From assembly GCA_016764785.1 (NCBI GenBank), contig JAESRG010000001.1, positions 1 to 49,039 on the forward strand: a DNA stretch of 49,039 bases, written 5' to 3'. Origin of the DNA: Paracoccaceae bacterium (GTDB lineage Bacteria; Pseudomonadota; Alphaproteobacteria; Rhodobacterales; Rhodobacteraceae). The notes beneath the pieces were generated by a model that was given only the letters and a program-made list of their open reading frames with translations, was not told the origin of the DNA and did no database searches. Of this stretch, positions 22,742 through 44,606 are shown piece after piece; the first letter of the stretch is position 1; each line of letters starts with the position of its first letter. The position numbers and the translations under genes were made by a program.

Positions 22742-24181
22742 TTAGAGCGTATCTTGAGCGTGTAAGGTCATCTGGTGATGGGCTTTATCGCTTTCGGTAA
22801 ACCACTTAAGGTCATCGCGCAGGCTGACGACCGATCCGATGATAATCAGCGCTGGGCCTTTGATGCCCGAATCCAAAACCTTGTCATGGATATCGCCAAT
22901 GGTGCCTGTCACAACCTGCTGGTTGGAGCGGGTGCCATTATCGATCACCGCAGCAGGGGTTGCGGGGTTTAGCCCGTGTTTGACAAATTGTTCCGACAGG
23001 GTGCCAAGGCTGGACAGGCCCATATAAACCACGACGGTTTGAGAGGGGTTGATCAGTGTTGGCCAATCCAGATCCAGCACGCCGTCTTTGCCATGCGCGG
23101 TGATCAGCACGCAAGATTGCGCGTGGTCACGATGGGTCAACGGAATGCCCGCATACGACGCGCAGCCTGACGCCGCCGTAATGCCGGGGATCACCTGAAA
23201 CGGGATGTCATGCTTGGCCAATTCTTCAAGTTCCTCGCCGCCACGGCCAAAGATAAACGGGTCGCCGCCTTTTAGGCGCAACACCCGTTTGCCTTGTTTG
23301 GCAAGGCTGACCATCAGTTGGGTGATGTCTTCTTGCACCATCGTGTGTTGCTGGGGCATTTTTCCAACATTCACCCGTTCAGCGTCACGCCGCACGAGGG
23401 TCATGATTTCATCGCTGACCAGCCTGTCGTACAGCACGACATCGGCGCGTTGCATCAGGCGCAGGGCCTTGAATGTCAGCAGGTCGGGGTCGCCAGGGCC
23501 AGCACCGACCAGATAAACCTCGCCCATCTGCGGGGTGTCGGCGGCTGTGGCGGCGATGTTGAGGTCTTCCAGCAGGCGTTTGCCTGCGGCCTCGGCGTCT
23601 CCGGCCAGAAAGAAGTCACCGACTTGGCCCTCGATGGTGTTTTCCCAGAAATGACGGCGTTGATCAGTTGACGTCAACTTATCCATCACCGCGTCGCGAA
23701 ATCCGCCGACAAATTTGGTCAGACGACCGTAAGCGGCGGGCAGCATGACCTCAATTCTGGCGCGCAGAATACGGGCGATGATGGGCGCGTTACCCCCCGA
23801 TGAAACAGCAACAATTAGCGGAGATCGATCCACCACTGACGGGGTGATAAAATCGCAATATTTGGTTACATCGGCGATGTTAACCAACACGCCCGCCTGT
23901 TTAGCCATACGGTGCAGGGCTTCGTCACGGGCATCGTTTTCGGTCGCGCCATAGGCAACGATGCATCCGTCAAAGTCGGCTTGTTCAGGGGCGCGAGGAA
24001 AATATGTCAGGCTTGGATGGCTGAGGAGTTTGTCGAATTCCGGCGACAGGTTCGGGCAGAACACAAAGACATTGGCGCCAGCGGTCAACGCCCGCTCAGC
24101 CCGCCGCGCGGCGGGGGTGCCCCCCCCGTCGATGATGATTTTCTTGGCTTTAACGTCAAGGAATATCGGCAGATGATCCAT
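22742..24181 (-). CDS. cysG: Siroheme synthase (precorrin-2 dehydrogenase/ferrochelatase fused to uroporphyrinogen-III C-methyltransferase)
   Basis: 479-aa ORF. The N-terminus is MDHLPIFLDVKAKKIIIDGGG and the C-terminal SUMT domain carries VYLVGAGPGDPDLLTFKALRLMQRADVVLYDRLV. Its stop abuts the ferritin stop with 0 nt between them. Confidence 0.9.
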   Translation of the reverse strand: MDHLPIFLDVKAKKIIIDGGGTPAARRAERALTAGANVFVFCPNLSPEFDKLLSHPSLTYFPRAPEQADFDGCIVAYGATENDARDEALHRMAKQAGVLVNIADVTKYCDFITPSVVDRSPLIVAVSSGGNAPIIARILRARIEVMLPAAYGRLTKFVGGFRDAVMDKLTSTDQRRHFWENTIEGQVGDFFLAGDAEAAGKRLLEDLNIAATAADTPQMGEVYLVGAGPGDPDLLTFKALRLMQRADVVLYDRLVSDEIMTLVRRDAERVNVGKMPQQHTMVQEDITQLMVSLAKQGKRVLRLKGGDPFIFGRGGEELEELAKHDIPFQVIPGITAASGCASYAGIPLTHRDHAQSCVLITAHGKDGVLDLDWPTLINPSQTVVVYMGLSSLGTLSEQFVKHGLNPATPAAVIDNGTRSNQQVVTGTIGDIHDKVLDSGIKGPALIIIGSVVSLRDDLKWFTESDKAHHQMTLHAQDTL

Positions 24182-30480: not shown

Positions 30481-32025
30481 ATGGCATCACTTGACATGGA
30501 CGCCAAGGGCGGCCCGAAATTTGTTGGCGATCCGCTAAAAATTCCGCAAATTGAGTGCGGCGCGATGGCTGATAGCAAAACATTTGCGGCGTATCCGGTG
30601 CACAACGAGGATCTCGGGTTTCCGGGTGAATTGCTGGACAACTGGAAAGAGGTCGCGATTGCCAAAATCGGTGAGCTGGCCGACAAAAACCGCGCCTTCA
30701 AGGTTTACCTTGATGCCTGCGTGAAATGCGGCGCTTGCACCGATAAATGCCATTACTTTTTGGGCACTGGTGACCCGAAAAACATGCCGGTTGCGCGCCA
30801 AGACCTGCTGCGATCTGTTTATCGGCGTTACTACACATTTGCCGGAAAATATTTCCCGTGGCTGGTGGGCGCGCGCGACATGACCCGCGAGGTTCTGGAC
30901 GAGTGGTACACCTATTACCACCAATGTTCGCAGTGCCGGCGGTGCTCGGTTGCTTGCCCTTATGGTATTGATACCGCCGAGATTTCCATGGCAGCGCGTG
31001 ACATTCTTGACAGCGTCGGGGTGGGGCAAAAATATTGCAACGAGATCATCGCCAAGCTGAAGAAAACTGGCAATAATCTGGGCCTGAACCCCAAAGCACT
31101 GCGCGCTACGCTGGAGGATCTTGAGGAAGATCTGGAAGAAGAAACCGGCATTGCAGTCAAGTTGCCGCTGGATGTTCAGGGCGCAGATATTTTGCTGATT
31201 ACCCCCTCGGCCGACTTTTTTGCCGAACCGCATATCGAAGGATTGCTGGGCTATGCCAAGGTGTTTCACGCATCGGGGGTTAGCTGGACGATCAGTTCCT
31301 ATGCTTCTGAGGCGGCGAATTTTGGCATGTTCATCGGCAGTTATGAAAACATGCGCGAGGTGTCGTGGCGCATCCGGCAAGCGGCCAAGGATTTGGGCGT
31401 TAAACGGATTGTGTTTGGCGAATGTGGCCATGCGTGGCGGGTTGGATATTCGTTCCTGAATACTCTTGCCGGGCCGTTTGATTTTCTGGATCAGAATTAT
31501 CCAATTCCGCAGCACATTATGGAATTCACCAGCGATGCCATCGACGACGGGCTTTTGAAAATCGACAAGTCACGCAACGATGAATTTGTGATGACCTATC
31601 ACGACAGTTGCAACGTGGCGCGCGGGTCTAGCATGGGCCGCAAACAAGGCGGGCAGTTTGATCTGCCACGCAAGGTTATCAAGGCCGTGTGTAATCATTT
31701 TTATGAAATGGAACGCGACACAATCCGCGAAAACACCTTTTGCTGCGGCGGGGGTGGCGGCTTGCTGACTGATGATCTGATGGACCTTCGGATCAAGGGT
31801 GCCAAGCCCAGAATGACCGCGCTGCAACAAGTGACCGAAGATCACGGCGTAACCCATATGGCGGCGATTTGCGCCATTTGTAAAACCCAGTTTTCCAAGG
31901 TGATGCCGAAATACGGCTATGAAATGGACAACGTTATGTCTGTGCATCAACTGGTCGCGAATGCCGTCATTCTGGACGGTCAGGAAACCGAGGCCGATGT
32001 GGCCACAGCGGAGGATACCCCATGA
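30481..32025 (+). CDS. dsrK: DsrK, HdrD-like iron-sulfur catalytic subunit
   Basis: 514-aa ORF with two 4Fe-4S motifs (CVKCGACTDKC, CSQCRRCSVACP) and a CCG domain (FCCGGGGG). Confidence 0.9.
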   Translation: MASLDMDAKGGPKFVGDPLKIPQIECGAMADSKTFAAYPVHNEDLGFPGELLDNWKEVAIAKIGELADKNRAFKVYLDACVKCGACTDKCHYFLGTGDPKNMPVARQDLLRSVYRRYYTFAGKYFPWLVGARDMTREVLDEWYTYYHQCSQCRRCSVACPYGIDTAEISMAARDILDSVGVGQKYCNEIIAKLKKTGNNLGLNPKALRATLEDLEEDLEEETGIAVKLPLDVQGADILLITPSADFFAEPHIEGLLGYAKVFHASGVSWTISSYASEAANFGMFIGSYENMREVSWRIRQAAKDLGVKRIVFGECGHAWRVGYSFLNTLAGPFDFLDQNYPIPQHIMEFTSDAIDDGLLKIDKSRNDEFVMTYHDSCNVARGSSMGRKQGGQFDLPRKVIKAVCNHFYEMERDTIRENTFCCGGGGGLLTDDLMDLRIKGAKPRMTALQQVTEDHGVTHMAAICAICKTQFSKVMPKYGYEMDNVMSVHQLVANAVILDGQETEADVATAEDTP

Positions 32026-33956
32026 ATAACCAAGTGACTCATCGCCGTTATACCGAGGGCGAAACCGAGGCGGATTGGGATCTTGAGGACAAGATTTTTC
32101 AGCAGGACACATCGTATAAATGTCCGACTTACATCCAGAAAACCGCGCCTTGTTCGGGGTCTTGCCCGTCGGGTCACGATATTCGCGGCTGGCTGGCGAT
32201 TGCGCGCGGTATGGACAAGCCTCCGGTTGAGGGCATGGCGTGGCAGGAATATGCGTTTCAAAGCATGGCCGAGGCCAACCCGTTTCCAGCCACGATGGGT
32301 CGGGTTTGCCCCGCGCCCTGCGAAAGCGGCTGTAACCGTAACGAGGTCGACGACTATGTCGGCATCAACGCGGTTGAACAATATGTCGGTGACTGGGCCA
32401 ATGAGAATGGCGTGAAACTGGCGACATGCGCCGCAGATACCGGCAAGAAAATTGCCATCATCGGGGGTGGCCCGGGTGGCTTGGCCGCGGCGTATTTTCT
32501 GCGCCGCAAAGGCCACGGCGTCACCGTTTTTGAATCGCATTCGGAACTGGGCGGCATGATGCGCTTTGGCATTCCGGGGTACCGAACGCCGCGCGGGATG
32601 CTCGACACTGAAATTGGCCGGATTGTTGATCTGGGCGTGGAAATCAAGCTGAATACCCATGTCGGACAGGATGTCTCGGTTGAGCAGCTTGAAGCGGATT
32701 ACGACGCGATATTCTGGGCCATTGGCGCCCAAACGGGCCGACCTTTGCCGATTCCGGGTTGGGAAGGCACTGAAAACTGCATCAACGGCATTGAATTTCT
32801 AGACGCCTTTAATAATGGTTATGTTCTGGGTACCGCAAAACGGGTTGTTGTTGTGGGCGGTGGCGATACGTCAATTGACGTGGCCTCGGTGGCGCGGCGT
32901 TTGGGCAGCATCACCAATGTGGCTGAAACCCAGCATGCTGACGGTACGGTGATTGATTTTACCGCCAAAGACGCGGCGGGTGTTTTGACCCGTGAGGGCA
33001 TGCAGGCAACGCTGACCTCGCTGTTTCCGATTGAACAAATGACCGCCGCCGAGCATGAGCGCGAAGACGCCAAACGCGAAGGCGTTGACCTTCAGGGCAG
33101 CGTGATGCCGCTTGAGGTTATAACCGACGACGCGGGCCGTGCGATTGCGCTGAAAGTCTGCGATTGTGTGATGAAAGGCAACGCGCCCGAAGCCGTTGAA
33201 GGCACCGAGCGTGAAATTCCGTGTGACATCATAATCTCGGCCATTGGCCAGATGGGCAACTTTGCCGGTGTTGAAACGATGGATAGCGGCAATGGTTTTA
33301 TCGCCGTCGAACCGAGTTACAAAGTCAAAGGCAAAGACAAGCATTTTGCTGGTGGTGACATTTTAAAACCACATTTGTTGACCACAGCGATCGGCCATGG
33401 CCGTGTTGCAGCGGCCACCATTGATGATTTTCTTGATGACGGTGAAATTGCTAAACGCCCGACCATCGACATCCATCAGTTCAACCTGCTGAACGAGCTG
33501 AATGTGCGTGGCCATGGGTTGGCTGAATTTGACCACTTGGCAGCGCGCGGCACCGACGAAGCTGCATATGCGGTGCATAATTTTGAAGATCGCTCGGCAA
33601 GCCAAATCATCAAACATGGAGAATTGTTCAAAGGTCATTTCGATTTTGTGAAACGCGAGGTTCGCGACGAAGTTCGCATTGAGGGCGAAGACGTGTTGGG
33701 TAACTTTGAAGAACGCATTATCGCGTATTCTGAGGAACAGGCCCAAAAAGAGGGCGAACGCTGCATGTCCTGTGGCATGTGTTTCGAGTGCGACAACTGC
33801 GTGATTTATTGCCCGCAGGACGCTGTTAGCCGCGTGAAAAAATCAGACCGCACTTTGGGCCGTTATGTTGAGACTGATTATTCCAAATGTATCGGCTGTC
33901 ATATCTGCGCTGATGTGTGCCCGACCGGTTACATTAAAATGGGTTTGGGGGGCTAA
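32022..33956 (+). CDS. dsrL: DsrL, NAD(P)H-dependent iron-sulfur flavoprotein (glutamate synthase small-subunit-like with C-terminal ferredoxin domain)
   Basis: 644-aa ORF with an ATGA overlap with dsrK. It has the FAD/NAD motif IAIIGGGPGGLAAAYFL and C-terminal CMSCGMCFECDNCVIYCP and CIGCHICADVCP motifs. Confidence 0.9.
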   Translation: MNNQVTHRRYTEGETEADWDLEDKIFQQDTSYKCPTYIQKTAPCSGSCPSGHDIRGWLAIARGMDKPPVEGMAWQEYAFQSMAEANPFPATMGRVCPAPCESGCNRNEVDDYVGINAVEQYVGDWANENGVKLATCAADTGKKIAIIGGGPGGLAAAYFLRRKGHGVTVFESHSELGGMMRFGIPGYRTPRGMLDTEIGRIVDLGVEIKLNTHVGQDVSVEQLEADYDAIFWAIGAQTGRPLPIPGWEGTENCINGIEFLDAFNNGYVLGTAKRVVVVGGGDTSIDVASVARRLGSITNVAETQHADGTVIDFTAKDAAGVLTREGMQATLTSLFPIEQMTAAEHEREDAKREGVDLQGSVMPLEVITDDAGRAIALKVCDCVMKGNAPEAVEGTEREIPCDIIISAIGQMGNFAGVETMDSGNGFIAVEPSYKVKGKDKHFAGGDILKPHLLTTAIGHGRVAAATIDDFLDDGEIAKRPTIDIHQFNLLNELNVRGHGLAEFDHLAARGTDEAAYAVHNFEDRSASQIIKHGELFKGHFDFVKREVRDEVRIEGEDVLGNFEERIIAYSEEQAQKEGERCMSCGMCFECDNCVIYCPQDAVSRVKKSDRTLGRYVETDYSKCIGCHICADVCPTGYIKMGLGG

Positions 33957-33962
33957 GCCACG

Positions 33963-34382
33963 ATGCGGATTCTTGTGTTGATTGCGATTTTGTTGGCGGG
34001 GGGCGTTTCGGCGCAAGACTTGTTTCCAACCGTGCCGCAAGCGCGGTTTGACCTCAGCACGCCGCACCCTGACGACATCCGTATTAACCATATTGATTAC
34101 CTGCGCCATGACCGCGATGCGACCATGCGTTTGGGCGACCGAGACATTGAATTCAGCCTGAAAGACTGCGTTGATTGTCACGCGGTGCGCGGGCCGGATG
34201 CCGGTTTTGTCACCGTCGAAAGCGAACAGCATTTTTGCCGCGCCTGCCATGAATATGCAGCGGTACAGATTGACTGTTTCCAGTGTCATAATTCCTTGCC
34301 CGAGGTCGATCTGGATCAGGCAGGGTTGATTTCTGACGATGAAATGGCAGCGCTCAGCGCTTATCTGGAGGGGCTGAATTAA
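33963..34382 (+). CDS. dsrJ: DsrJ, periplasmic trihaem cytochrome c
   Basis: 139-aa ORF with signal/anchor MRILVLIAILLAGGVSA and exactly three CxxCH motifs (CVDCH, CRACH, CFQCH). It contains no other cysteine. Confidence 0.85.
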   Translation: MRILVLIAILLAGGVSAQDLFPTVPQARFDLSTPHPDDIRINHIDYLRHDRDATMRLGDRDIEFSLKDCVDCHAVRGPDAGFVTVESEQHFCRACHEYAAVQIDCFQCHNSLPEVDLDQAGLISDDEMAALSAYLEGLN

Positions 34383-35140
34383 TGAAACTTCCGATGCTCA
34401 ATACCAAAAAGGTTGACCCCGTCGACATCGGTCGCCGCCAGTTTTTGCGCAGCGGCGCGGCGGCAGTTACCGTGACCTTGGCACCGGGCGTGACCATCAT
34501 GGCATATGGTGGCGCGGCGGCGGCGGGGGCCAATCCGGCGACCCGTTGGGGGCTGCTGATTGATGTGAATAAATGCGCCAGTGATTGTAATGCCTGCGTG
34601 ACGGCTTGTTCGACGGAAAATGGCTGGGAAGACACAGGCAACCCTGAAACCGACCCGCAGTGGATTCGCAAAATTGACCTGCACAACCCCGAAACTGGGT
34701 TGGACCAGTCGTTGCCAATGATGTGCCAGCACTGCGAAGACCCACCTTGCGTGGACGTCTGCCCAACCGGCGCGTCGTTCAAGCGGCCCGACGGTATTGT
34801 GCTGGTCGACAAACATACCTGTATCGGCTGTCGGTATTGCATAATGGCCTGTCCGTACAAAGCACGCTCATTTGTGCATGCTCCGTTGACGGGCCAAAAG
34901 GCGCACGCGCCGCGCGGGCAGGGTACGGTTGAAAGCTGCACAATGTGCGTGCATCGGGTGGACGAGGGCGGCCAACCTGCCTGCGTTGAGGCCTGCGGCA
35001 CAACCGGTAACGGTGCAATGCTTTTTGGCAATCTGAATGACCCCGAAAGCGAGATCGCGCAGCGATTGGCGACCTATGCGTCCAGTGCTGTGCGGGCTGA
35101 TTTGAACCTCAATCCGGGTGTTCGGTATACTAACCTATAG
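34382..35140 (+). CDS. dsrO: DsrO, periplasmic 4Fe-4S ferredoxin-like subunit
   Basis: 252-aa ORF with a TAATG overlap with dsrJ. It has the twin-arginine signal GRRQFLRSGAAAV and multiple CxxCxxC clusters. Confidence 0.9.
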   Translation: MKLPMLNTKKVDPVDIGRRQFLRSGAAAVTVTLAPGVTIMAYGGAAAAGANPATRWGLLIDVNKCASDCNACVTACSTENGWEDTGNPETDPQWIRKIDLHNPETGLDQSLPMMCQHCEDPPCVDVCPTGASFKRPDGIVLVDKHTCIGCRYCIMACPYKARSFVHAPLTGQKAHAPRGQGTVESCTMCVHRVDEGGQPACVEACGTTGNGAMLFGNLNDPESEIAQRLATYASSAVRADLNLNPGVRYTNL

Positions 35141-35149
35141 GGGCTGAAA

Positions 35150-36361
35150 ATGGAACGGATCGTTTATCGCGAACTAAAATCTACCCCGCAGGTCTGGGGC
35201 ATGCTGGCGTTGCTGGCTGGGTTTATCGGCGCAGCTGCGGCCTCGGTTTTGTATGTTGAACATCACGGTCATATCGTGACCGGCATGACCAATCAGATTG
35301 TCTGGGGCTTGCCACATGTGTTTGCGATTTTCCTGATTGTTGCCGCGTCGGGCGCGTTGAATGTGTCGTCGATCGGCTCGGTTTTTGGCAAGACAGCGTA
35401 CAAACCTGTGGCACGGCTTTCCAGCCTTTTGGCGATGGCGTTATTGATGGGCGGCTTGGCGGTGCTGGTGCTTGACCTTGGGCGGCCTGACCGTTTGATC
35501 GTGGCGATGACCAAGTATAATTTCCGGTCAATCTTTGCGTGGAACGTGCTGCTTTATACCGGCTTTCTGGCTGTTGTTGGCGTTTATCTTTACGCACAAA
35601 TGGCGCGGGGTGTGCATAGCTTTGCGCTTCGCACCGCCGGCACGGTTGCGTTCCTGTGGCGGTTGGCACTGACCACTGGCACCGGCTCAATTTTTGGCTG
35701 GCTGGTGGCACGACCGGGCTATGATGCGGCGATCATGGCCCCGATGTTTATCGCCATGTCTTTTGCGTTCGGCCTCGCGTTTTTCCTGATCGTGATGACT
35801 TGGACTTGCCGCATGACCACGCGGGTTTTCAGCCCCGAGCTGCGCACCCGTCAGGCACGCCTTTTGGGCGTGTTTGTGGCCGTGGTGGTTTACTTTACGA
35901 TCATCCAGCACCTGTCGAATATCTATGTCGCTGAGCACACGGGTTATGAGCGGTTTATCCTGCTGGAGGGCGGTCTTTATACATGGCTTTTCTGGGGGGC
36001 GCAGATCGGGCTGGGCAGCATCGTGCCGATGATCCTGCTGTTTCACCCCAAGTTGGACACCAAATTTGGCTATGTCATTCTGGCGGCGCTTTTGGTGGTG
36101 CTGGGCGGGTTTGCCCAATTATACGTGATTATCGTCGGCGGGCAGGCTTACCCGATGGACATGTTCCCCGGGCTCGAGGTTTCAAGCAGTTTTTACGACG
36201 GAGTAGTCAGCCAATATTCCCCCAGCATTTATGAATGGGCGCTGGGCATCGGTGGCGTTGCTCTGACTCTGTTTGTAACCGGATTGGGCATGAAGTTCTT
36301 GCGCATTCTGCCCGACAACCTTACCGATGAGAACATCGATCCTTCAACACTTGCAGGTTAA
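35150..36361 (+). CDS. dsrP: DsrP, NrfD-like integral membrane subunit
   Basis: 403-aa polytopic membrane ORF in the canonical position after dsrO. Confidence 0.85.
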   Translation: MERIVYRELKSTPQVWGMLALLAGFIGAAAASVLYVEHHGHIVTGMTNQIVWGLPHVFAIFLIVAASGALNVSSIGSVFGKTAYKPVARLSSLLAMALLMGGLAVLVLDLGRPDRLIVAMTKYNFRSIFAWNVLLYTGFLAVVGVYLYAQMARGVHSFALRTAGTVAFLWRLALTTGTGSIFGWLVARPGYDAAIMAPMFIAMSFAFGLAFFLIVMTWTCRMTTRVFSPELRTRQARLLGVFVAVVVYFTIIQHLSNIYVAEHTGYERFILLEGGLYTWLFWGAQIGLGSIVPMILLFHPKLDTKFGYVILAALLVVLGGFAQLYVIIVGGQAYPMDMFPGLEVSSSFYDGVVSQYSPSIYEWALGIGGVALTLFVTGLGMKFLRILPDNLTDENIDPSTLAG

Positions 36362-36362
36362 A

Positions 36363-37370
36363 ATGCTTACAGAACCCCATCCATTTGCCAAATTTGTCGC
36401 GATCCTTGGTCGCGGAAAAACCAAACAACGCCATCTGACGATTGAAGAAGCGTCGGAATCTATGGCGATGATTTTGCGCGGTGAGGCCCGCCCCGAACAG
36501 ATCGGTGCGTTCCTGATGTTGCTGCGCTTGAAAGAGGAATCGCCGGGTGAAATCGCTGGCTTTACCCTTGGCACCCGGGCGGTTCTGAAACTGCCCGGTG
36601 TGATCCCCGAGGTTGATATCGACTGGTCGTCATATGCGGGCAAACGCCGGCAATTGCCGTGGTTTTTGCTGTCGGTGATCCTGCTGTCGCAAAACGGCGT
36701 TCGGGTGATGATGCATGGCTCGGGCGAGCACACGCCGGGCCGGATCTATACCGCTAGCACGCTAGAATATCTGGGGTATCCGGTGGCCACAACCCTTGCT
36801 GAGGCGGCTGAGCAAATCGCCGAACGGAACCTCGGGTTTATCGCGTTGGAACATCTTTGTCCGCCGCTGCAAGACCTGATGGAGCTAAAACCCATTTTAG
36901 GATTGCGCTCACCCGTGAACAGTTTTTCGCGGATGATTAACCCGTTTAATGCACCGGTGATGATGCAAGGAATTTTTCATCGTGGCTTTATGGATATCCA
37001 TGCGGGCGCCGGAATTTTGCTGGGTCAGCCAGTGACAACCGTGTTCCGTGGCGAGGGCGGCGAGATTGAACGTCGGCCAAATAAACCCACCGTCGCTGGA
37101 ACCGCGCGGGATGGTAAAATCACCACCGAAAGCTGGCCGCAATTGCTGGAAGACGGCCACGCGGCCGCGGACCTTGAGATGGATCTAGGCAATCTGGTGG
37201 CGGTTTGGCAGGGCAAAAAGGTCAGCGAATATGCCACGGCCTCAATCACCGGAACCTTGGCGATTACGCTGAAATCATTGGGCAAAGCTGACACGGTTGA
37301 GGCCGCGCAGGCCATAGCAAACGACATGTGGGACGCGCGCAATAAAGCCTTGTTGCCGCTGGTCGGCTAA
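36363..37370 (+). CDS. TrpD2/YbiB-family protein (anthranilate phosphoribosyltransferase fold without the PRPP motif)
   Basis: ATG at 36363 lies 1 nt after the dsrP stop. FAKFVAILGRGKTKQRHLTIEEASESMAMILRGEARPEQIGAFLMLLRLKEESPGEIAGF aligns by eye with E. coli YbiB. SSYAGKRRQ replaces the TrpD GTGGD motif, matching YbiB PSYNGARKQ. The track start at 36327 lies inside dsrP. Confidence 0.7.
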   Translation: MLTEPHPFAKFVAILGRGKTKQRHLTIEEASESMAMILRGEARPEQIGAFLMLLRLKEESPGEIAGFTLGTRAVLKLPGVIPEVDIDWSSYAGKRRQLPWFLLSVILLSQNGVRVMMHGSGEHTPGRIYTASTLEYLGYPVATTLAEAAEQIAERNLGFIALEHLCPPLQDLMELKPILGLRSPVNSFSRMINPFNAPVMMQGIFHRGFMDIHAGAGILLGQPVTTVFRGEGGEIERRPNKPTVAGTARDGKITTESWPQLLEDGHAAADLEMDLGNLVAVWQGKKVSEYATASITGTLAITLKSLGKADTVEAAQAIANDMWDARNKALLPLVG

Positions 37371-37374
37371 CCCG

Positions 37375-38712
37375 ATGTCGCGGATATTTATTGCGGCGGC
37401 GCATAAATCATCCGGCAAAACGGTGATTTCCACCGGCATAACTGCAGCGTTGCGGGCGCGAGGATCAACCGTTCAGACCTTCAAGAAAGGCCCCGATTAT
37501 ATCGACCCGATGTGGCTGTCTGAGGCCAGCGGCGCGCCGTGTTATAATCTCGATTTCAATACCATGAGCCATGCGGAATTGCTGCGTCTATTTGGTCAGC
37601 GTGCTACCGCAGATATTGCGTTGATCGAGGCCAATAAAGGCCTGTTCGACGGCGTTGACCTTAAGGGCTGCGATTCAAACGCGGCCTTGGCGAAACTGCT
37701 CAAAGCGCCGGTGGTGCTGGTGATCGACACGGTTGGTATGACACGGGGTATTGCGCCGCTGATGCTAGGCTATCAAAATTTTGATCCCGAGATTGAGATC
37801 GCGGGGGTGATCCTGAACAAAGTTGGCGGCCCGCGCCACGAGGGAAAACTGCGCGCGGCGATGCAGGCATATTGCGATATTCCGGTGCTTGGCGCGGTCG
37901 GGCGCACGGCGGATTTGGAAATCGGAGAGCGTCATCTAGGGCTGACCACGCCCGCTGAAACCGGCGAATTTCCGGCGATGATTTCGCGGATAGCGCGGAT
38001 CATTGATGGTTCGGTCGATTTGGACAAGCTGATCGAAATCGCAGGTAATGCACAGGCGTTGCCAGCGGTTTCTGCCCGTGTTTCGACAACCCGCAGCAAG
38101 GACGTCCGTATCGGCATTCCGCGCGATACAGCGTTCGGATTTTATTACCCTGATGACCTTGAGGCGATGGAAAACGCCGGTGCCGAGCTGGTGTTTTTTG
38201 ACACGCTTCGCGATGCCAAATTGCCCGACATTGACGGGCTGTTTATCGGCGGCGGTTTTCCCGAAACCCAAATGGTGGCACTGGCCGAGAATGTCTCGAT
38301 GCGGGCCAACATTCGCCATGCAATCAAATCGGGTATGCCCGCTTATGCAGAATGCGGCGGGCTGATGTATCTTTGCAAGTCACTGTCGTGGCAGGGCAAA
38401 CGGTTTGACATGGTCGGGGCGATTGCAGGCGATGCGGTGATGAACGCGCGACCACAGGGGCGGGGCTATGCGCGGTTGCGCGGAAAAACCGAATTTCCGG
38501 CGCATGAATTCCATTACGCGCGAATTGACAACCTGCCTAAGGACACCAAATTCGCCTATGAGGTACTGCGTGGTCACGGCATCGACGGGCAGCATGACGG
38601 GGTGATGTTGAACAACCTCACCGCCGGATTTTGTCACCTGCGCCATACCAAATCCAACCCTTGGGCTAGCCAGTTTGTCGACACGGTGCGCGCAAAAAAA
38701 ATGCCCCGCTAA
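37375..38712 (+). CDS. dsrN: DsrN, cobyrinate a,c-diamide synthase homologue (siroheme amidase)
   Basis: 445-aa ORF with CobB/CbiA-type N-terminus IFIAAAHKSSGKTVISTGITAAL...KKGPDYIDP and a C-terminal glutamine amidotransferase domain (YAECGGLMYL). Confidence 0.85.
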   Translation: MSRIFIAAAHKSSGKTVISTGITAALRARGSTVQTFKKGPDYIDPMWLSEASGAPCYNLDFNTMSHAELLRLFGQRATADIALIEANKGLFDGVDLKGCDSNAALAKLLKAPVVLVIDTVGMTRGIAPLMLGYQNFDPEIEIAGVILNKVGGPRHEGKLRAAMQAYCDIPVLGAVGRTADLEIGERHLGLTTPAETGEFPAMISRIARIIDGSVDLDKLIEIAGNAQALPAVSARVSTTRSKDVRIGIPRDTAFGFYYPDDLEAMENAGAELVFFDTLRDAKLPDIDGLFIGGGFPETQMVALAENVSMRANIRHAIKSGMPAYAECGGLMYLCKSLSWQGKRFDMVGAIAGDAVMNARPQGRGYARLRGKTEFPAHEFHYARIDNLPKDTKFAYEVLRGHGIDGQHDGVMLNNLTAGFCHLRHTKSNPWASQFVDTVRAKKMPR

Positions 38713-39073: not shown

Positions 39074-39586
39074 CTAAATAAACAGATTAATGTCAGAGCG
39101 GGTTGCCACGTCGATATAGGTCGCCGCGCCGCCAAGCTCGATGCCGTCAATCATGTCCTTTGTGTCCATTTCAAACAGATCAAGGGTCATCTGGCAGGCG
39201 ATCATCCGTACGTCGGATTCAATCGCCGCCTCGCGCAGTTCCTCAATCGAGGCCACGCCTTTTTTCTTGAACAGATTTTTCATCATCGTGGTGGCACCCC
39301 GGTCAACCCCCGGCATGGCCGCGATGATATTTGGCATCGCCATATGCATGCCCATCATTGGCATTTTCATCGCTGGATTGCCCAGTGTGGTCATTTTCAG
39401 GTCCAGCTTTTTGTTCAAAAGCGGCAGGCCGTAAAATGTGAAAAACATGGTCACTTCAAGGTCCATTGCCGCAGCGGTGGTGCCCAGAATAAACGGCGGA
39501 TAGGCCCAGTCGAGCGAGCCTTTAGTGACGATAATCGACATGCTTTTGGCGTTTTCAAAACCGCCGGACTTGTTGTCGTCGGACAT
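39074..39586 (-). CDS. dsrE2: DsrE2-like protein (DsrE/DsrF/DrsH-like family)
   Basis: 170-aa ORF with MSIIVTKGSLDWAYPPFILGTTAAAMDLEVTMFFTFYGL, a Met-rich loop, and the single conserved Cys in RMIACQMTLDLF. Confidence 0.8.
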   Translation of the reverse strand: MSDDNKSGGFENAKSMSIIVTKGSLDWAYPPFILGTTAAAMDLEVTMFFTFYGLPLLNKKLDLKMTTLGNPAMKMPMMGMHMAMPNIIAAMPGVDRGATTMMKNLFKKKGVASIEELREAAIESDVRMIACQMTLDLFEMDTKDMIDGIELGGAATYIDVATRSDINLFI

Positions 39587-39609
39587 TGACGAACCCTCCC
39601 AGATTTTAC

Positions 39610-39621
39610 GTATTATAATAC
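39610..39621. promoter_or_regulatory. Perfect 12-bp palindrome in the dsrE2/yeeE divergent region
   Basis: gtattataatac equals its own reverse complement and lies 24 nt upstream of the dsrE2 ATG. Confidence 0.35.
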
Positions 39622-39670
39622 ATTGCGATTATTGAATACCATGAGGGGCGCGGAGTCAAGAAAACCAAGC

Positions 39671-39696
39671 ATATTACGCTGAATCAGGCGTAATAT
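39671..39696. promoter_or_regulatory. 9-bp inverted repeat in the dsrE2/yeeE divergent region
   Basis: atattacgc (39671-39679), 8-nt loop tgaatcag, gcgtaatat (39688-39696). Confidence 0.3.
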
Positions 39697-39796
39697 TTGG
39701 CTGATGAAAATAAATGCTACCCATACAATCATATATACACTAATTTGAATGAATAACACGCAGCCGGAACGGCGCTGAAGGTTTTGGGAGAAGACG

Positions 39797-40891
39797 ATGC
39801 TAGATAGCTGGAGAGACATAATCATTGAATCGCCGGATTTTTACATCGGCTATGGCGGGCTTTTGATTGGTACCGTGTTCGGATTTATCGTGTTCTGGAC
39901 TAATTTTTGCACCATGGGGTCGATTTCGGATTTCATGAACTTTGGCGATTTTCGCCGGTTTCGGGCGTGGATGCTGGCAGGGTTGGTCGCCATTCTGGGT
40001 GTCTATGGATTGCAGAAAGCTGGGGTGATGAACCCCGCGGATTCGATGTATTTGACCGTTAATTTTGGCTGGCTTGGCAATGTTATCGGCGGTATTTTGT
40101 TTGGTGTTGGTATGGTGCTGTCCGGCGGCTGTGTTAGTCGGAACCTGGTGCGCGCGGGCGGTGGAGACCTGCGCTCACTACTGCTACTATTCGTGATTGG
40201 CGTGTTTGGATACATGACAATTGGCGGTATTTTAGGGCCCTTGCGGGTGTCTTGGTTTGCGATTGGCACGGTTAATTTGGCTGATAGCGGCATGCAAAGC
40301 CAAAGTGTCGGTGCGTTTCTGGCGCACCTAACAGGCATGGATGAGGCACGGGCTGAATCGGTTGCACTTTGGGTGATCGTTGCATTAATGGCGGCGTTTA
40401 TCTTGTACTCCAAAAGTTTTCTTAAATCACCGTTACTGCTGGCATCGGGCATTGGCATCGGGCTCTGCGTGGTCGCGGGCTGGATGCTGACCGGCTTGGC
40501 GCAAGATGATTTTGCCGATGTTCCGGTGGCGCTGGCATCGCTGACCTATGTGCGACCAACGGGTGATATGATGGATTACCTGATGCGCCAAACCGCGCTG
40601 GGCGCGCCGAGCTTTGCGGTCGTGACCACCTTTGGCGCGCTGCTGGGTGGGTTCCTTGGGGCGTTGGTCAAGCGTGACCTGCGGCTAAAAACCTTTGCGA
40701 ATAACAGCGACACGGTACGCAATATTTTTGGTGCCGCGATTATGGGGATCGGCGGCGTGTTGGCGCTGGGGTGCACAGTAGGGCAAGCAGTGACGGGCGT
40801 TTCTACACTGGCGCTGGGGTCGTTTATTACGTTTGCCTGTATTGTGCTGGGCGGAATGATTGCAATGAAAGTTATGGAGTGGTTGGCCTAA
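39797..40891 (+). CDS. yeeE: YeeE/YedE-family sulfur-compound (thiosulfate) transporter
   Basis: 364-aa polytopic ORF with the three conserved Cys motifs (NFCTMGS, SGGCVSRN, ALGCTVGQ). GGGAGAAG lies upstream of the ATG. Confidence 0.85.
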   Translation: MLDSWRDIIIESPDFYIGYGGLLIGTVFGFIVFWTNFCTMGSISDFMNFGDFRRFRAWMLAGLVAILGVYGLQKAGVMNPADSMYLTVNFGWLGNVIGGILFGVGMVLSGGCVSRNLVRAGGGDLRSLLLLFVIGVFGYMTIGGILGPLRVSWFAIGTVNLADSGMQSQSVGAFLAHLTGMDEARAESVALWVIVALMAAFILYSKSFLKSPLLLASGIGIGLCVVAGWMLTGLAQDDFADVPVALASLTYVRPTGDMMDYLMRQTALGAPSFAVVTTFGALLGGFLGALVKRDLRLKTFANNSDTVRNIFGAAIMGIGGVLALGCTVGQAVTGVSTLALGSFITFACIVLGGMIAMKVMEWLA

Positions 40892-41088: not shown

Positions 41089-42198
41089 TTAGCCCTCGTC
41101 TTTATCGGGGTTGAGTTGCGCGGCGATCGCTAAGGCGATGGCCTGATAGGCTTTGGCGTGGACGCTTTCTGGCTCGGACGCCACAATCGGGGTGCCTGTG
41201 TCGGAATGCTTGCGGATGTCCATATGCAGCGGAATTTCCCCGAGGAACGGAATTTTCAATTTTGCGGCTTCTTCGCGCGCGCCACCGTGGCCAAAAATGT
41301 CGGATTGTTCACCGCATTTCGGGCAGATGAACGTGCTCATGTTTTCAATAATGCCAAAGATCGGCACGTCAACATTCTGGAACATTTTTAGACCTTTGCG
41401 CGCGTCAATCAGGGCCAGATCTTGCGGTGTTGAGACAATCACCGCACCCGCTACCGGCACTTGTTGCGCAAGGGTCAGCTGGATGTCACCGGTACCCGGC
41501 GGCATGTCAAGGACCAGCACGTCGAGTTCGCCCCATGCGACTTCGTTGAGCAGTTGCATCAGGGCTGACACGATCATCGGGCCGCGCCAAATCACCGGAT
41601 TGTTTTCTTCCATCAGAAAACCCATCGACATGATTTTAATGCCGAACTTTTCCATCGGAATAACGGATTCGTCGCGAATTTCCGGCCGTTCGCCCGCCAT
41701 ACCCGCAAGCCGTGGCACCGAGGGGCCATAGATGTCAGCATCCAGCAGTCCAACCTTAAGGCCGAGCGCGTGCAGGCCAAGTGCGATGTTGATCGCGGTG
41801 GTCGATTTGCCAACCCCGCCTTTGCCCGAGGCAATGGCCAAAATCGACGTTACCCCCGGAATGGCCCCGGCTTTGGGGCGCATGTCTGGCCCCACCGGGC
41901 GTTCTTTGCGGGCTTTTAGTTTGGGCGGTTCCGCCACCACCGGTGCGGCGCGGTCAGCGGTCAGGGCGATCAGCACTTTGTCAACGCCATCCAACGCCCA
42001 GACAACCTCTTCGGCTTTGCGTTGCAGCTTGACGGGGTCACCGCGAAAATCCTCGGGGACGGTGATCGAGAACACCACTTTATTGCCAGTAATGATGATA
42101 TCGGACACCAGATTGGCTGAGATGATGTTTCCCTCAAGCCCGCGCGTTTCAACGCTTTTTAAGGCATCAATAATTTTATCTTGTGTGACTTCGGCCAT
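41089..42198 (-). CDS. apbC: Mrp/NBP35/ApbC-family iron-sulfur cluster carrier ATPase
   Basis: 369-aa ORF with an N-terminal DUF59-like domain, a deviant Walker A AIASGKGGVGKST, and a CxxC motif (FICPKCGEQ). Confidence 0.9.
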   Translation of the reverse strand: MAEVTQDKIIDALKSVETRGLEGNIISANLVSDIIITGNKVVFSITVPEDFRGDPVKLQRKAEEVVWALDGVDKVLIALTADRAAPVVAEPPKLKARKERPVGPDMRPKAGAIPGVTSILAIASGKGGVGKSTTAINIALGLHALGLKVGLLDADIYGPSVPRLAGMAGERPEIRDESVIPMEKFGIKIMSMGFLMEENNPVIWRGPMIVSALMQLLNEVAWGELDVLVLDMPPGTGDIQLTLAQQVPVAGAVIVSTPQDLALIDARKGLKMFQNVDVPIFGIIENMSTFICPKCGEQSDIFGHGGAREEAAKLKIPFLGEIPLHMDIRKHSDTGTPIVASEPESVHAKAYQAIALAIAAQLNPDKDEG

Positions 42199-42915: not shown

Positions 42916-43103
42916 AGCTATATCCTTTTGAAATCGGTCAATGACGAGAACATAAGCCAATTATTCAATCAAGCAAAGACCCAGTTCACCCGTTTGCAAT
43001 TTTTGCAAAGCTGCAAAATTTCGATTTGTCATGATTGTTTGGCTTGACCTCGGTCAGTGAGATGCTAGGAAGCGGACGGCCCCCATCGTCGCGTCTGCGA
43101 TTG

Positions 43104-43112
43104 TGGTATACT
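43104..43112 (+). promoter_or_regulatory. Extended -10 promoter candidate for zwf
   Basis: TGgTATACT lies about 43 nt upstream of the zwf ATG. A TTGCAA-N3-TTGCAA repeat is at 42994-43008. Confidence 0.3.
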
Positions 43113-43154
43113 ATCCTAAAGGACGACATCGTCACATTTAAGGAAGGGCCTTGC

Positions 43155-44606
43155 ATGGTTTCTCGCGTTATTCCCGTTAGTCCGTTTGATCTGGTCATAT
43201 TTGGCGCGACAGGTGATCTGTCTCGACGTAAAATTTTGCCTGCCCTGTTTCGGCGGATGCGGGCGGGGCAAATGCCTGAAAACTCTCGTATTATTGGCGC
43301 GGCGCGAACTAAAATGGACAGCGCTGGGTTTCGCGATTTTGTACGCGAATCTATGGCGGAGTTTGAGCCAACGGCCAAAGATACCCCTGAGGTTCTGGAG
43401 ACCTTTATTGCTGCGCTTGAGTACACGCCGATTGACGCAATGGGTGATGCTGGCTGGAAACCGCTGAAAAAGCTGATCCGCAAAGATACTGTGCAGGCGT
43501 TTTATCTGTCGGTTGGGCCAAGTCTGTTTGGTGAAATCGCGCATCGTTTGCATGTGCATGGCATTGCCACGCCCGAAAGCCGGATCGTAGTTGAAAAACC
43601 GCTTGGGCATGATCTGGCCTCGGCCAAGGACTTGAACAAGCGTCTGGGTGAGTGCTTTGAGGAGCATCAGATTTATCGCATTGACCATTATTTAGGCAAA
43701 GAAACCGTGCAAAATCTGATGGCAATCCGGTTTGCTAATGCGCTGTTTGAACCGTTGTGGAACTCAAAATACGTTGATCATGTGCAAATCACTGTGGCCG
43801 AAAGCATCGGGGTTGAGGGGCGCGGCGGCTATTACGATAAATCGGGCGCGTTGCGTGACATGGTTCAGAACCATATGATGCAGTTGCTGTGCCTGACCGC
43901 GATGGAACCGCCCGCCAAGTTCAACGCTGATTTTGTGCGCGACGAAAAGCTGAAGGTTATTCGCGCGCTTGACCCACTAAAGGTTTCTGACACGGTGCGC
44001 GGCCAATATCGGGCTGGCGGTGGCGAGGCAAGTTACATCGAGCATGCCGAAAATCCTGACAGCCATACCGAAAGTTTTGTGGCATTAAAGGTTAATATTT
44101 CAAACTGGCGTTGGGCTGGCACGCCGTTTTATTTGCGCACCGGCAAACGGTTGCGGGCGCGGATGTCGGAAATTGCGGTGGTGTTCAAAGACCCACCCCA
44201 TTCCATTTTCGAAGAATCTAACCATCGCAAAGGCAATACCTTGATCATTCGGTTGCAACCGGATGAGGGGATCACCCTGCGCATGACCATCAAGGAACCG
44301 GGGCCGGGCGGCATGCGTCTGACCGAGGTGCCGCTGGACATGAGCTTTGCTGACGCGCTAGGCCCCGATGCGATTGTCACTGATGCGTATGAACGGTTGA
44401 TCATGGATGTGATCCGTGGCGATCAAACATTGTTCATGCGCGGTGACGAAGTTGAAGAAGCCTGGGCGTGGATCGACCCGCTGATTGCCGCGTGGGAGGC
44501 AGATTCAAGCAAACCCGCACCTTATGACGCTGGCAGTTCCGGCCCAGAAGATGCCTTGGCGTTGCTGCACCGTGATGGCCGTCGTTGGAGAGAAATTGAT
44601 GTCTAA
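43155..44606 (+). CDS. zwf: Glucose-6-phosphate 1-dehydrogenase
   Basis: ATG at 43155 is preceded by AAGGAAGGG. Motifs FGATGDLSRRKILPAL and RIDHYLGKE are present. The track start at 43035 is an upstream extension. Confidence 0.95.
   Translation: MVSRVIPVSPFDLVIFGATGDLSRRKILPALFRRMRAGQMPENSRIIGAARTKMDSAGFRDFVRESMAEFEPTAKDTPEVLETFIAALEYTPIDAMGDAGWKPLKKLIRKDTVQAFYLSVGPSLFGEIAHRLHVHGIATPESRIVVEKPLGHDLASAKDLNKRLGECFEEHQIYRIDHYLGKETVQNLMAIRFANALFEPLWNSKYVDHVQITVAESIGVEGRGGYYDKSGALRDMVQNHMMQLLCLTAMEPPAKFNADFVRDEKLKVIRALDPLKVSDTVRGQYRAGGGEASYIEHAENPDSHTESFVALKVNISNWRWAGTPFYLRTGKRLRARMSEIAVVFKDPPHSIFEESNHRKGNTLIIRLQPDEGITLRMTIKEPGPGGMRLTEVPLDMSFADALGPDAIVTDAYERLIMDVIRGDQTLFMRGDEVEEAWAWIDPLIAAWEADSSKPAPYDAGSSGPEDALALLHRDGRRWREIDV

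What the first reader, a model, noticed from the sequence alone, without database searches (positions are those of the whole stretch)
36363..37370. YbiB/TrpD2-family gene inserted between dsrP and dsrN
A 335-aa protein with the anthranilate-phosphoribosyltransferase fold lies inside the dsr operon. It has YbiB-type substitutions (SSYAGKRRQ instead of GTGGD). Its ATG is 1 nt after the dsrP stop, and dsrN starts 4 nt after its own stop. The characterised member of this family, E. coli YbiB, binds nucleic acids and has no known catalytic role. I know of no such gene in the described dsr sets. The whole ~27-kb island lacks any recognisable regulator. A nucleic-acid-binding or ligand-sensing role, or a role with DsrN in siroheme amide formation, is therefore worth testing.
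Basis: partly seen in the sequence, partly recalled or inferred. Interest (0 to 1): 0.7.

Follow-up and report, generated by a model that had tools for sequence, protein, structure and literature searches.

The report
Siroheme-linked TrpD2-like gene in dsr operon
A conserved gene of unknown function, built on the tryptophan-enzyme TrpD fold but without its catalytic motifs, sits between dsrP and dsrN; across bacteria it travels with, and is sometimes fused to, the genes that make or use the cofactor siroheme, so it probably helps to handle siroheme and is not a DNA-binding regulator.

Summary
A 335-aa ORF (36363-37370, +) starts 1 nt after the dsrP stop and ends 4 nt before the dsrN ATG. It has the TrpD/YbiB fold (AF2 pLDDT 93; TM ~0.8 to both) and carries SSYAGKRRQ where TrpD has GTGGD.

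The interpretation needs revising:
- It is not a one-off insertion. Of 120 distinct relatives, 98 fit dsrP-X-dsrN, in Alpha-, Beta- and Gammaproteobacteria. The gene is under purifying selection (dN/dS ~0.1).
- It is not universal. Six of seven gammaproteobacterial dsrN loci sampled independently of X join dsrP directly to dsrN, as in A. vinosum.
- It is not a YbiB orthologue. It passes NCBIfam NF006564 (368 bits, cutoff 257) and fails the YbiB model (116, cutoff 185). The family is acidic (median pI 6.0).

Outside dsr, the same family lies next to cysG, inside nirB-nirD-nasA-X-cysG operons, and is fused to the uroporphyrinogen-III methyltransferase domain in Gallionella. Siroheme is the common link.

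Best reading: an accessory factor for siroheme handling, probably binding a tetrapyrrole. The association is well supported. The mechanism is inferred. I found no description of it in the searchable literature.

The parts
36363..37370 (+). Gene X: 335-aa TrpD2-like protein of NCBIfam family NF006564/PRK09071, annotated in public records as 'glycosyl transferase family protein'.
   Evidence: ORF and junctions. NF006564 368 bits against cutoff 257. AF2 pLDDT 93.1. Foldseek TM ~0.8 to TrpD and YbiB. dN/dS 0.10-0.14 against close relatives.
36627..36653 (+). Codons for residues 89-97, SSYAGKRRQ. This family-defining loop replaces the PRPP-binding GTGGD loop of TrpD. D87, W88, Y91, A92 and K/R94 are conserved across dsr-, cysG- and nas-linked members and the SUMT fusions.
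   Evidence: Alignments.
37050..37079 (+). Codons for residues 230-239, GEGGEIERRP. This conserved acidic motif lies at the position of the Mg2+-binding acidic pair of TrpD. It is invariant in the dsr-, cysG- and SUMT-linked clades and has diverged in the HTH-fusion subfamily.
35150..36361 (+). dsrP (NrfD-type membrane subunit of DsrMKJOP). Its stop codon is 1 nt before the ATG of X.
   Evidence: Pfam NrfD 170 bits; position after DsrO and DsrJ.
37375..38712 (+). dsrN (CobB/CbiA-type glutamine amidotransferase, the presumed siroheme amidase). Its ATG is 4 nt after the stop of X.
   Evidence: NCBIfam CobB 413 bits, CfbB 424 bits; Pfam CbiA plus GATase_3. Role as described in PMC3368242.
25740..35140 (+). 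dsrABEFHCMKLJO, the upstream part of the same co-directional gene string.
   Evidence: ORF list and Pfam/NCBIfam hits. tblastn synteny with 40+ loci.
22742..24181 (-). cysG, a full-length siroheme synthase, divergent from the dsr operon in the same island. cysG is the gene most often next to X in loci that lack dsr.
   Evidence: Pfam NAD_binding_7, Sirohm_synth_M, CysG_dimeriser and TP_methylase. cysG-X adjacency elsewhere.

Best explanation
X belongs to NF006564/PRK09071, an uncharacterised sister family of YbiB/TrpD2. I read this family as an accessory component of siroheme-dependent pathways.

Proposed role in this window: X is translated together with DsrP and DsrN from tightly packed, probably coupled genes. 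It works on the cofactor side of the Dsr system.

Most likely mechanism: X binds siroheme or an octacarboxylate precursor (precorrin-2 or sirohydrochlorin) in the inter-domain cleft, where TrpD binds PRPP and anthranilate. Binding would use the conserved Arg/Lys/His/Glu cluster. X would then act as a carrier or regulatory partner that links siroheme synthase (CysG, encoded 12 kb upstream) to DsrN and to apo-DsrAB. In other bacteria it would do the same for NirB.

Shown here:
- family membership;
- loss of the TrpD catalytic motifs;
- purifying selection;
- conserved gene order;
- recurrent linkage and fusion to siroheme genes.

Inferred, not shown:
- that the ligand is a tetrapyrrole;
- that the protein acts by hand-off or allosteric control and not by catalysis.
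For: 1. Conserved position. Of 120 distinct X loci, 84 are dsrP-X-dsrN and 14 more are consistent but cut at a contig end. They include Rhodobacterales, Hyphomicrobiales, Rhodobiaceae, Sulfuricellaceae and a Solemya symbiont.

2. cysG adjacency outside dsr. X lies next to full-length cysG in at least 8 loci, in divergent and co-directional layouts. One locus is cysG<->X-dsrN with no other dsr genes (L029).

3. Same orthologous group. cysG-linked X proteins are scattered among dsr-linked ones in the tree.

4. Annotated genomes of cultured bacteria:
- nirB-nirD-nasA-X-cysG operons in Ponticoccus and Sulfitobacter;
- X in nas/nirB/cobA clusters in Skermanella and Catenovulum;
- X-cysG beside a nasA-nirDB cluster in Thiobacillus.

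5. Natural fusions of X to the SUMT domain. P0245 has 10 members from independent Gallionella assemblies, and P0265 is a second cluster. The X half passes the NF006564 cutoff (380 and 336 bits). The other half matches TIGR01469 (308 bits) and CysG residues 198-449. X therefore sits where CysG has its dehydrogenase/chelatase module.

6. A LysR-HTH plus X-like subfamily lies in iron-chelate and TonB uptake loci. The fold is used there as a ligand-sensing domain.

7. About 60 invariant positions in 64 sequences, many of them Arg, Lys, His or Glu, fall on loops homologous to the TrpD active site. R95 and R127 match YbiB R92 and R123, which bind a carboxylate and DNA phosphate (PMC10123104).

8. 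dN/dS is 0.10-0.14, like DsrP and DsrN.
Against: - There is no biochemical or genetic evidence of any kind. All of the evidence is contextual.
- X is dispensable for Dsr function in many organisms. It is absent from A. vinosum and from 6 of 7 gammaproteobacterial dsrN loci sampled independently of X.
- Fourteen of the 120 loci, and A. baumannii, have X in unrelated contexts such as purD, malate synthase, DnaJ, Bax1-I and NAD kinase.
- The census of 120 loci was retrieved through X itself and is limited to relatives at least 46% identical. It therefore overstates how common X is in dsr clusters.
- X usually coexists with a complete CysG, so no missing step in siroheme synthesis obviously needs it.
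- The tools return no model coordinates, so I could not check that the conserved residues line one pocket.
Confidence: 0.55

Rival explanations
1. X is a YbiB-like protein that binds nucleic acids without sequence specificity, or a regulator that controls the dsr operon.
For: YbiB is the best PDB sequence hit (7y3p, E 9e-19). The S-Y-x-G-x-R-x-Q loop and the two Arg residues that YbiB uses for DNA binding are conserved. No regulator is recognisable in the soe-dsr island of the window.
Against: - X fails the YbiB model (115.9 bits, cutoff 185).
- The family is acidic: median pI 6.0, against pI 9.2 for the aligned YbiB fragment.
- There is no LexA or dinG context. The contexts are cysG, nirBD and SUMT fusions.
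- Family members in regulatory roles carry a separate LysR HTH.
- Gammaproteobacterial dsr clusters with X (L048, L149) keep the same GAF-kinase/GerE pair as those without it.
Confidence: 0.1
2. X is an enzyme that acts on siroheme or a precursor. One option is an alternative sirohydrochlorin ferrochelatase or iron-delivery step that replaces or complements the N-terminal module of CysG. Another is an undescribed modification of siroheme that works with the DsrN amidation.
For: In the Gallionella fusions X takes the place of the CysG dehydrogenase/chelatase module, N-terminal to SUMT. Invariant His (6, 118, 206, 213) and Glu/Asp (58, 59, 63, 87, 234, 236) could bind a metal. Conservation is high in the way typical of active sites. 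Iron-related genes lie nearby: bacterioferritin and Mrp/ApbC in the window, and Mrp next to the fusion gene.
Against: X usually sits beside a full-length CysG that carries all its Pfam modules. There is no recognisable cofactor or nucleotide motif. The PRPP loop is lost. No step in siroheme synthesis or amidation is known to lack an enzyme. The HTH-fusion relatives suggest a binding domain more than a catalytic one.
Confidence: 0.25
3. X is a true TrpD paralogue (anthranilate phosphoribosyltransferase), or another phosphoribosyl or nucleoside transferase, that ended up in the operon by chance.
For: Same fold, with TM ~0.8 to TrpD. The H-G of KHGN, the G-x-R of the anthranilate site (R182), the N-P motif and an acidic cluster are kept.
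Against: - TIGR01245 scores 64.9 bits against a cutoff of 199.
- GTGGD is replaced by SSYAGKRR, and the following N-x-S-T by P-W-F-L.
- KHGN is replaced by MHGS.
- No trp genes lie nearby.
- The position is conserved in about 100 loci, and the gene is fused to SUMT.
Confidence: 0.03

Closest known systems
E. coli / Salmonella YbiB (TrpD2 family; NCBIfam NF006005; PDB 4MUO, 8BFR, 7Y3P)
   Same: Whole-chain PRT-III fold (TM 0.79-0.85). The GTGGD and KHGN motifs of TrpD are lost. The S-Y-x-G-x-R-x-Q loop and the H-G...R motif are shared, with X R95 and R127 matching YbiB R92 and R123. About 22% identity.
   Different: X scores below the YbiB family cutoff (116 against 185 bits) and belongs to a separate NCBIfam model. 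It is acidic where YbiB is basic. It has additional invariant motifs (N-terminal H-P-F, D-W-S-S-Y-A-G-K-R, G-E-G-G-E-x-E-R-x-P, and C-terminal W...R). Its genomic context is dsr, cysG and nirBD, not the LexA-controlled dinG-ybiB operon.
TrpD, anthranilate phosphoribosyltransferase (TIGR01245; e.g. PDB 1O17, 1KHD, 4HKM)
   Same: Two-domain fold with TM ~0.8. The helical N-domain is recognised by Pfam PF02885. G-x-R (R182), N-P (193-194) and an acidic cluster are retained.
   Different: The PRPP-binding loop and the KHGN motif are absent. The HMM score is far below the cutoff (65 against 199). There is no trp context.
NCBIfam NF006564 / PRK09071 'glycosyl transferase family protein' (uncharacterised)
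   Same: X is a member: 368 bits against a cutoff of 257, aligned end to end over 4-329 of 335 residues. The nas-, cysG- and SUMT-linked and stand-alone homologues tested are also members.
   Different: The family has no assigned function and its name is generic. The link to siroheme genes reported here is not part of its annotation.
CysG siroheme synthase (N-terminal dehydrogenase/ferrochelatase module plus C-terminal SUMT)
   Same: The Gallionella X-SUMT fusion copies the CysG two-module layout, with X in the N-terminal position. X is encoded next to cysG in many genomes.
   Different: X has no sequence or fold relationship to the N-terminal Rossmann-type module of CysG. Nothing shows that X has dehydrogenase or chelatase activity.

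Membership tests
TrpD (anthranilate phosphoribosyltransferase) | Two-domain PRT class III fold | tested here: met
   AF2 pLDDT 93.1. Foldseek TM 0.78-0.81 to 4hkm, 1khd and 1o17.
TrpD (anthranilate phosphoribosyltransferase) | PRPP-binding GTGGD loop followed by N-x-S-T, and the KHGN motif | tested here: not met
   X has W-S-S-Y-A-G-K-R-R, then P-W-F-L, and M-H-G-S at the aligned positions.
TrpD (anthranilate phosphoribosyltransferase) | Score above the curated TIGR01245 cutoff | tested here: not met
   64.9 bits against a cutoff of 199.05.
TrpD (anthranilate phosphoribosyltransferase) | Anthranilate PRT activity | not testable with these tools
   Needs an enzyme assay or trpD complementation.
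YbiB / TrpD2 (NF006005) | TrpD fold without the TrpD catalytic motifs, with the conserved S-Y-x-G-x-R-x-Q loop and the two conserved Arg residues (YbiB R92, R123) | tested here: met
   X SSYAGKRRQ against YbiB PSYNGARKQ. R95 and R127 are invariant in 64 family members.
YbiB / TrpD2 (NF006005) | Score above the curated NF006005 cutoff | tested here: not met
   115.9 bits against a cutoff of 185. The alignment covers only residues 7-234.
YbiB / TrpD2 (NF006005) | Basic protein with positively charged grooves that bind nucleic acid | tested here: inconclusive
   Net charge is -2.7 for X and the family median is -5.8 (pI 6.0), against pI 9.2 for the aligned YbiB fragment. Local surface charge and actual binding could not be examined.
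YbiB / TrpD2 (NF006005) | SOS/LexA-regulated context with the dinG helicase | tested here: not met
   None of about 150 loci examined has a helicase neighbour. Contexts are dsr, cysG and nas. The YbiB context is described in PMC5445326 and PMC10123104.
NCBIfam NF006564 (PRK09071) | Score above the curated cutoff over the full length | tested here: met
   368 bits against a cutoff of 257; residues 4-329 aligned to model positions 9-332 of 335.
Oxidative-type dsr operon (accessory gene) | Conserved, co-directional, tightly spaced position inside dsr clusters of several lineages | tested here: met
   84 of 120 loci are dsrP-X-dsrN and 14 more are partial. The gaps to the flanking genes are typically under 60 bp. 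Alpha-, Beta- and Gammaproteobacteria are represented.
Oxidative-type dsr operon (accessory gene) | Present in all dsr clusters (core component) | tested here: not met
   Absent from A. vinosum and from 6 of 7 gammaproteobacterial dsrN contexts sampled independently of X.
Siroheme biosynthesis/handling module (proposed) | Recurrent gene linkage or fusion with siroheme synthase genes and siroheme enzymes, independent of dsr | tested here: met
   cysG adjacency. nirB-nirD-nasA-X-cysG operons. X-SUMT fusions in Gallionella.
Siroheme biosynthesis/handling module (proposed) | Binds or transforms siroheme or a precursor | not testable with these tools
   Needs protein biochemistry.

The most novel reading that the evidence does not exclude
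NF006564 proteins are a missing, widespread component of siroheme metabolism. They would be either a dedicated siroheme carrier or insertase that delivers the cofactor from CysG to DsrN/DsrAB and NirB, or a new catalytic module (for example an alternative chelatase or iron-loading step) that replaces the N-terminal half of CysG in Gallionella. The TrpD2 fold would then be a general binding scaffold for iron-tetrapyrroles and iron chelates, also used as the sensor domain of a class of LysR-type regulators of iron uptake.
Probability: 0.4. Interest if true: 0.8.

Novelty: new variant of a known kind. Interest (0 to 1): 0.66.

Why it matters
How siroheme gets from its synthase into sulfite and nitrite reductases is not known. 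It is also unclear how DsrN gains access to siroheme for amidation. No dedicated siroheme carrier or maturation factor has been described, as far as I could find.

Here is a conserved gene under purifying selection. It sits inside dsr and nas operons and is fused to the first siroheme enzyme in one lineage. That makes it a concrete and testable candidate.

It would also give a first functional handle on the TrpD2 superfamily, whose only studied member, YbiB, has no established role. It would add an accessory gene to the oxidative Dsr gene set that synteny surveys restricted to known Dsr proteins have passed over.

For annotation, the label 'glycosyl transferase family protein' or 'anthranilate phosphoribosyltransferase' on these genes is misleading.

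Tried and rejected
- Start codon. The upstream in-frame ATG at 36327 was rejected, because homologue N-termini align with 36363.
- True TrpD. Rejected on motifs and HMM score.
- YbiB orthologue. Rejected on HMM cutoff, charge and context.
- Neutral or selfish insertion, or pseudogene. Rejected: dN/dS is 0.10-0.14 and the gene order is conserved. The one apparently disrupted copy (L043) is a scaffold gap of Ns.
- X as a substitute for a missing regulator. Rejected, because gammaproteobacterial clusters with X keep their two-component pair.
- DsrN on plasmids. The search returned only cobalamin CobB genes of Thermus and gave no information.
- Literature. Ten searches and several full-text look-ups found no mention of a TrpD-like gene in dsr or nas clusters. 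One query was wasted because 'dsrN' matched 'dsRNA'. Schneider et al. 2015, the paper that defined TrpD2, is not in the library, so I could not check whether it describes subgroups.
- Promoters and terminators. The scan around X found nothing above shuffled expectation inside the gene string.
- Structure. The tools give no coordinates or PAE, so I could not map conserved residues onto a pocket or model a complex of X with DsrN or CysG.
Full report
**1. The observation**

The window has an ORF at 36363-37370 (+) of 335 codons. The dsrP stop (TAA, 36359-36361) is followed by one base and then the ATG. The ORF's own TAA (37368-37370) is followed by CCCG and the dsrN ATG at 37375. A longer reading frame from an ATG at 36327 is possible, but the N-termini of homologues all begin a few residues before an invariant H-P-F. 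That matches the start at 36363.

- an NrfD-type membrane protein after DsrO (NF045797, 312 bits) and DsrJ;
- a CobB/CbiA-type amidotransferase, DsrN, downstream.

The full string is dsrABEFHCMKLJOP-X-N, 25740-38712.

**2. What kind of protein it is**

Pfam recognises the helical N-domain of the TrpD family (PF02885, 56 bits). The α/β domain is found only just below threshold (PF00591, 23.3 against 27 bits).

An AlphaFold2 model built from 64 homologues is confident (pLDDT 93.1, pTM 0.91). It superposes equally well on TrpD and YbiB structures (TM 0.78-0.85, 19-23% identity).

At residue level:
- X has W-S-S-Y-A-G-K-R-R-Q where TrpD has the PRPP loop GTGGD and YbiB has P-S-Y-N-G-A-R-K-Q.
- X has M-H-G-S-G-E-H-T-P-G-R where TrpD has K-H-G-N-R and YbiB has V-H-G-V-S-E-D-P-T-R.

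The two arginines that YbiB uses to bind DNA and a glutamate of ObgE (R92 and R123; PMC10123104) are invariant here as R95 and R127.

NCBI's curated models nevertheless separate X from YbiB:

| Model | X score (bits) | Cutoff (bits) |
|---|---|---|
| NF006564 / PRK09071, 'glycosyl transferase family protein' | 368 | 257 |
| NF006005, YbiB | 115.9 | 185 |
| TIGR01245, TrpD | 64.9 | 199 |

An exhaustive HMMER search of 1.84 billion representatives found 169 clusters (50% identity) at E<=1e-30. The YbiB boundary appears near E~1e-33.

The family is acidic (median pI 6.0, net charge -5.8). The aligned part of YbiB is basic (pI 9.2).

**3. Not a local insertion: a conserved accessory gene, but not a universal one**

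A scan of one genome per GTDB species gave 46 loci. A metagenome scan gave 80 more. I classified the neighbours by tblastn with the window's own Dsr proteins, plus CysG and NirB probes. Results for 120 non-identical X loci:

| Context | Loci |
|---|---|
| dsrP-X-dsrN, both sides seen | 84 |
| Consistent with dsrP-X-dsrN, one side cut by a contig end | 14 |
| Next to cysG | 8 |
| Elsewhere | 14 |

The dsrP-X-dsrN loci come from Rhodobacterales/Paracoccaceae, Hyphomicrobiales, Rhodobiaceae and Sulfuricellaceae (Betaproteobacteria). A gammaproteobacterial Solemya gill symbiont has the same order. Cultured carriers include Ruegeria marisrubri, Ruegeria aquimaris and Tropicimonas.

Against close relatives, dN/dS for X is 0.10-0.14. 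DsrP and DsrN give 0.10-0.19 (dS is saturated, so these values are approximate).

This census was retrieved through X, so it overstates how often dsr clusters contain X. As a check that does not depend on X, I searched with the Solemya symbiont DsrN and inspected seven homologues on long contigs. Six have dsrP followed directly by dsrN. One has X. A. vinosum also has no room for X: 15 locus tags for 15 named genes (PMC3368242).

X is therefore lineage-variable. It is common in the alphaproteobacterial clusters sampled and patchy in the gammaproteobacterial ones.

**4. What the other contexts say**

Every recurrent non-dsr context involves siroheme.

- *cysG adjacency.* In Thiobacillus, X is followed by a full-length cysG and lies beside a nasA-nirD-nirB-nasT-nasS cluster. 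In several Rhodobacterales MAGs and in Meinhardsimonia, cysG is divergent from X. One locus is cysG<->X-dsrN with no other dsr gene. In an NJ tree these cysG-linked proteins are scattered among the dsr-linked ones, so they belong to the same orthologous group.
- *nas operons in PGAP-annotated replicons of cultured bacteria.* Ponticoccus alexandrii and Sulfitobacter sp. OXR-159 carry nirB-nirD-nitrate reductase-X-cysG with overlapping stop and start codons. In Skermanella sp. TT6, X is divergent from nirB-nasA-transporter. In Catenovulum adriaticum the order is nasA-X, with cobA-nirB-nirD about 3.4 kb downstream.
- *Fusions.* Two clusters of about 585-aa proteins fuse X to a uroporphyrinogen-III C-methyltransferase domain. 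One has 10 members from independent Gallionella assemblies, on contigs up to 435 kb. Both halves pass their curated cutoffs (NF006564 380 bits; TIGR01469 308 bits). The methylase half aligns to CysG residues 198-449. X therefore stands where CysG has its dehydrogenase/ferrochelatase module.
- *The window itself.* It encodes cysG (22742-24181, -) in the same island as dsr. It also has a bacterioferritin, a soeABC-like operon and an Mrp/ApbC Fe-S carrier.

A more divergent subfamily (27-32% identity) adds an N-terminal LysR helix-turn-helix. It lies next to siderophore or iron-chelate ABC transporters and TonB receptors in Cereibacter, Agrobacterium and Pannonibacter. Tianweitania carries the same fusion; I did not examine its genomic context. 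In these proteins the fold evidently serves as the effector-binding domain of a transcription factor.

**5. Mechanism**

*Shown:*
- The TrpD catalytic apparatus is gone.
- A different set of polar residues is almost invariant across dsr-, cysG- and nas-linked members and the SUMT fusions: D87, W88, Y91, K/R94, R96, H118, R182, R190, N193, H206, E234, E236, W282, W323, R326.
- The gene is selected for.
- It travels with siroheme genes.

*Inferred:* the cleft binds an anionic ligand shared by all these contexts. The obvious candidate is siroheme or its octacarboxylate precursors. The YbiB-equivalent arginines would suit carboxylate binding.

I consider a carrier or regulatory-partner role the most likely (CysG to X, then to DsrN/DsrAB or NirB). 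X normally coexists with a complete CysG, and its relatives are used as sensor domains.

A catalytic role, such as an alternative chelatase or iron-loading step, is the main rival. The architecture of the fusion and the conserved His and Glu residues keep it alive.

A YbiB-like nucleic-acid-binding or regulator role is unlikely, for four reasons:
- the protein is acidic;
- it has enzyme-type contexts;
- family members that bind DNA carry an added HTH;
- gammaproteobacterial dsr clusters with X keep the same GAF-kinase/GerE regulator pair as those without it.

**6. Novelty**

The family is catalogued (NF006564) but has no function, and its name is generic. None of ten full-text searches or the papers I read mentions a TrpD-like gene in dsr or nas clusters. 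The largest Dsr synteny survey tracked only known Dsr proteins (PMC10504309). The Methylovirgula paper lists dsrABEFHCMKLJOPN without comment (PMC9371685). The paper that defined TrpD2 could not be read.

I rate this as a new functional variant of a known fold family. The link to siroheme is well supported. The mechanism is open.

**7. Caveats**

- All functional evidence is comparative.
- The 120-locus census is biased towards relatives of X.
- 14 of those loci, and A. baumannii, show no siroheme neighbour. This is expected for a stand-alone housekeeping accessory gene, but it does not help the argument.
- dS is saturated.

Noticed in passing
window 17688-24181: Immediately upstream of dsr lie a soeABC-like sulfite-oxidising molybdoenzyme operon (17688-22143), a bacterioferritin (22202-22741) and a full-length cysG on the minus strand (22742-24181). 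Siroheme synthesis and iron storage genes are thus packaged with the sulfur-oxidation island.
   Followed up: partly
window 41089-42198 (-); L133 9843-10937: An Mrp/ApbC (NUBPL-type) Fe-S cluster carrier lies three genes after dsrN in the window. A gene of the same family directly follows the Gallionella X-SUMT fusion gene. This may reflect joint maturation of the siroheme-[4Fe-4S] centre, or it may be coincidence.
   Followed up: no
window 24578-25507 (-); L143 8418-9350: A TauD/TfdA-family dioxygenase sits between cysG and dsrA in the window. Another TauD-family gene lies just downstream of a gammaproteobacterial dsr cluster. Its role is unknown.
   Followed up: no
L135 8033-9739; L051 5179-6882: A bifunctional PP2C phosphatase / Ser-Thr kinase is co-directional with X, 22 bp downstream, in Skermanella. 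The same type of kinase sits inside the Thiobacillus nas cluster beside X-cysG. This raises the possibility that siroheme or nitrate-assimilation enzymes are controlled by phosphorylation.
   Followed up: no
L140 6527-8047; L141 6545-7993; L142 6551-8044; P0377: A subfamily of about 480-506-aa proteins fuses a LysR-type HTH to an X-like domain in place of the usual LysR effector domain. In Cereibacter, Agrobacterium and Pannonibacter it lies next to siderophore or iron-chelate ABC transporters and TonB receptors; a heme oxygenase lies nearby in Cereibacter. Tianweitania (P0377) has the same fusion, but its context was not examined. This looks like an undescribed class of regulator.
   Followed up: partly
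L048 9823-12161; L144-L149: Gammaproteobacterial dsr clusters are followed by dsrR-like, GAF-HisKA_3 sensor kinase and GerE-type response regulator genes, whether or not X is present. The alphaproteobacterial window has no counterpart.
   Followed up: partly
L039 3614-7547: One Rhodobacterales MAG has two tandem dsrL-like genes, 56% and 78% identical to the window's DsrL, between dsrK and dsrJ.
   Followed up: no
L043 10202-10300: The only X copy that looked disrupted is interrupted by a run of N (a scaffold gap or masked stretch). It is not a pseudogene.
   Followed up: yes
P0313 / P0404 (Neomegalonema): X homologues in Neomegalonema carry a 145-residue N-terminal extension with no Pfam match.
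   Followed up: no
window 39074-40891: Downstream of dsrN lie a DsrE2 sulfur-carrier gene (minus strand; NF047629, 224 bits) and a YeeE/TsuA-like thiosulfate or sulfur transporter gene. This pair is syntenic in most alphaproteobacterial loci.
   Followed up: partly
window 43035-47090: A zwf-pgl-edd (Entner-Doudoroff) gene set borders the sulfur island on the right. On the left (about 8.3-16.9 kb) are a LacI regulator and sugar ABC-transporter genes.
   Followed up: no
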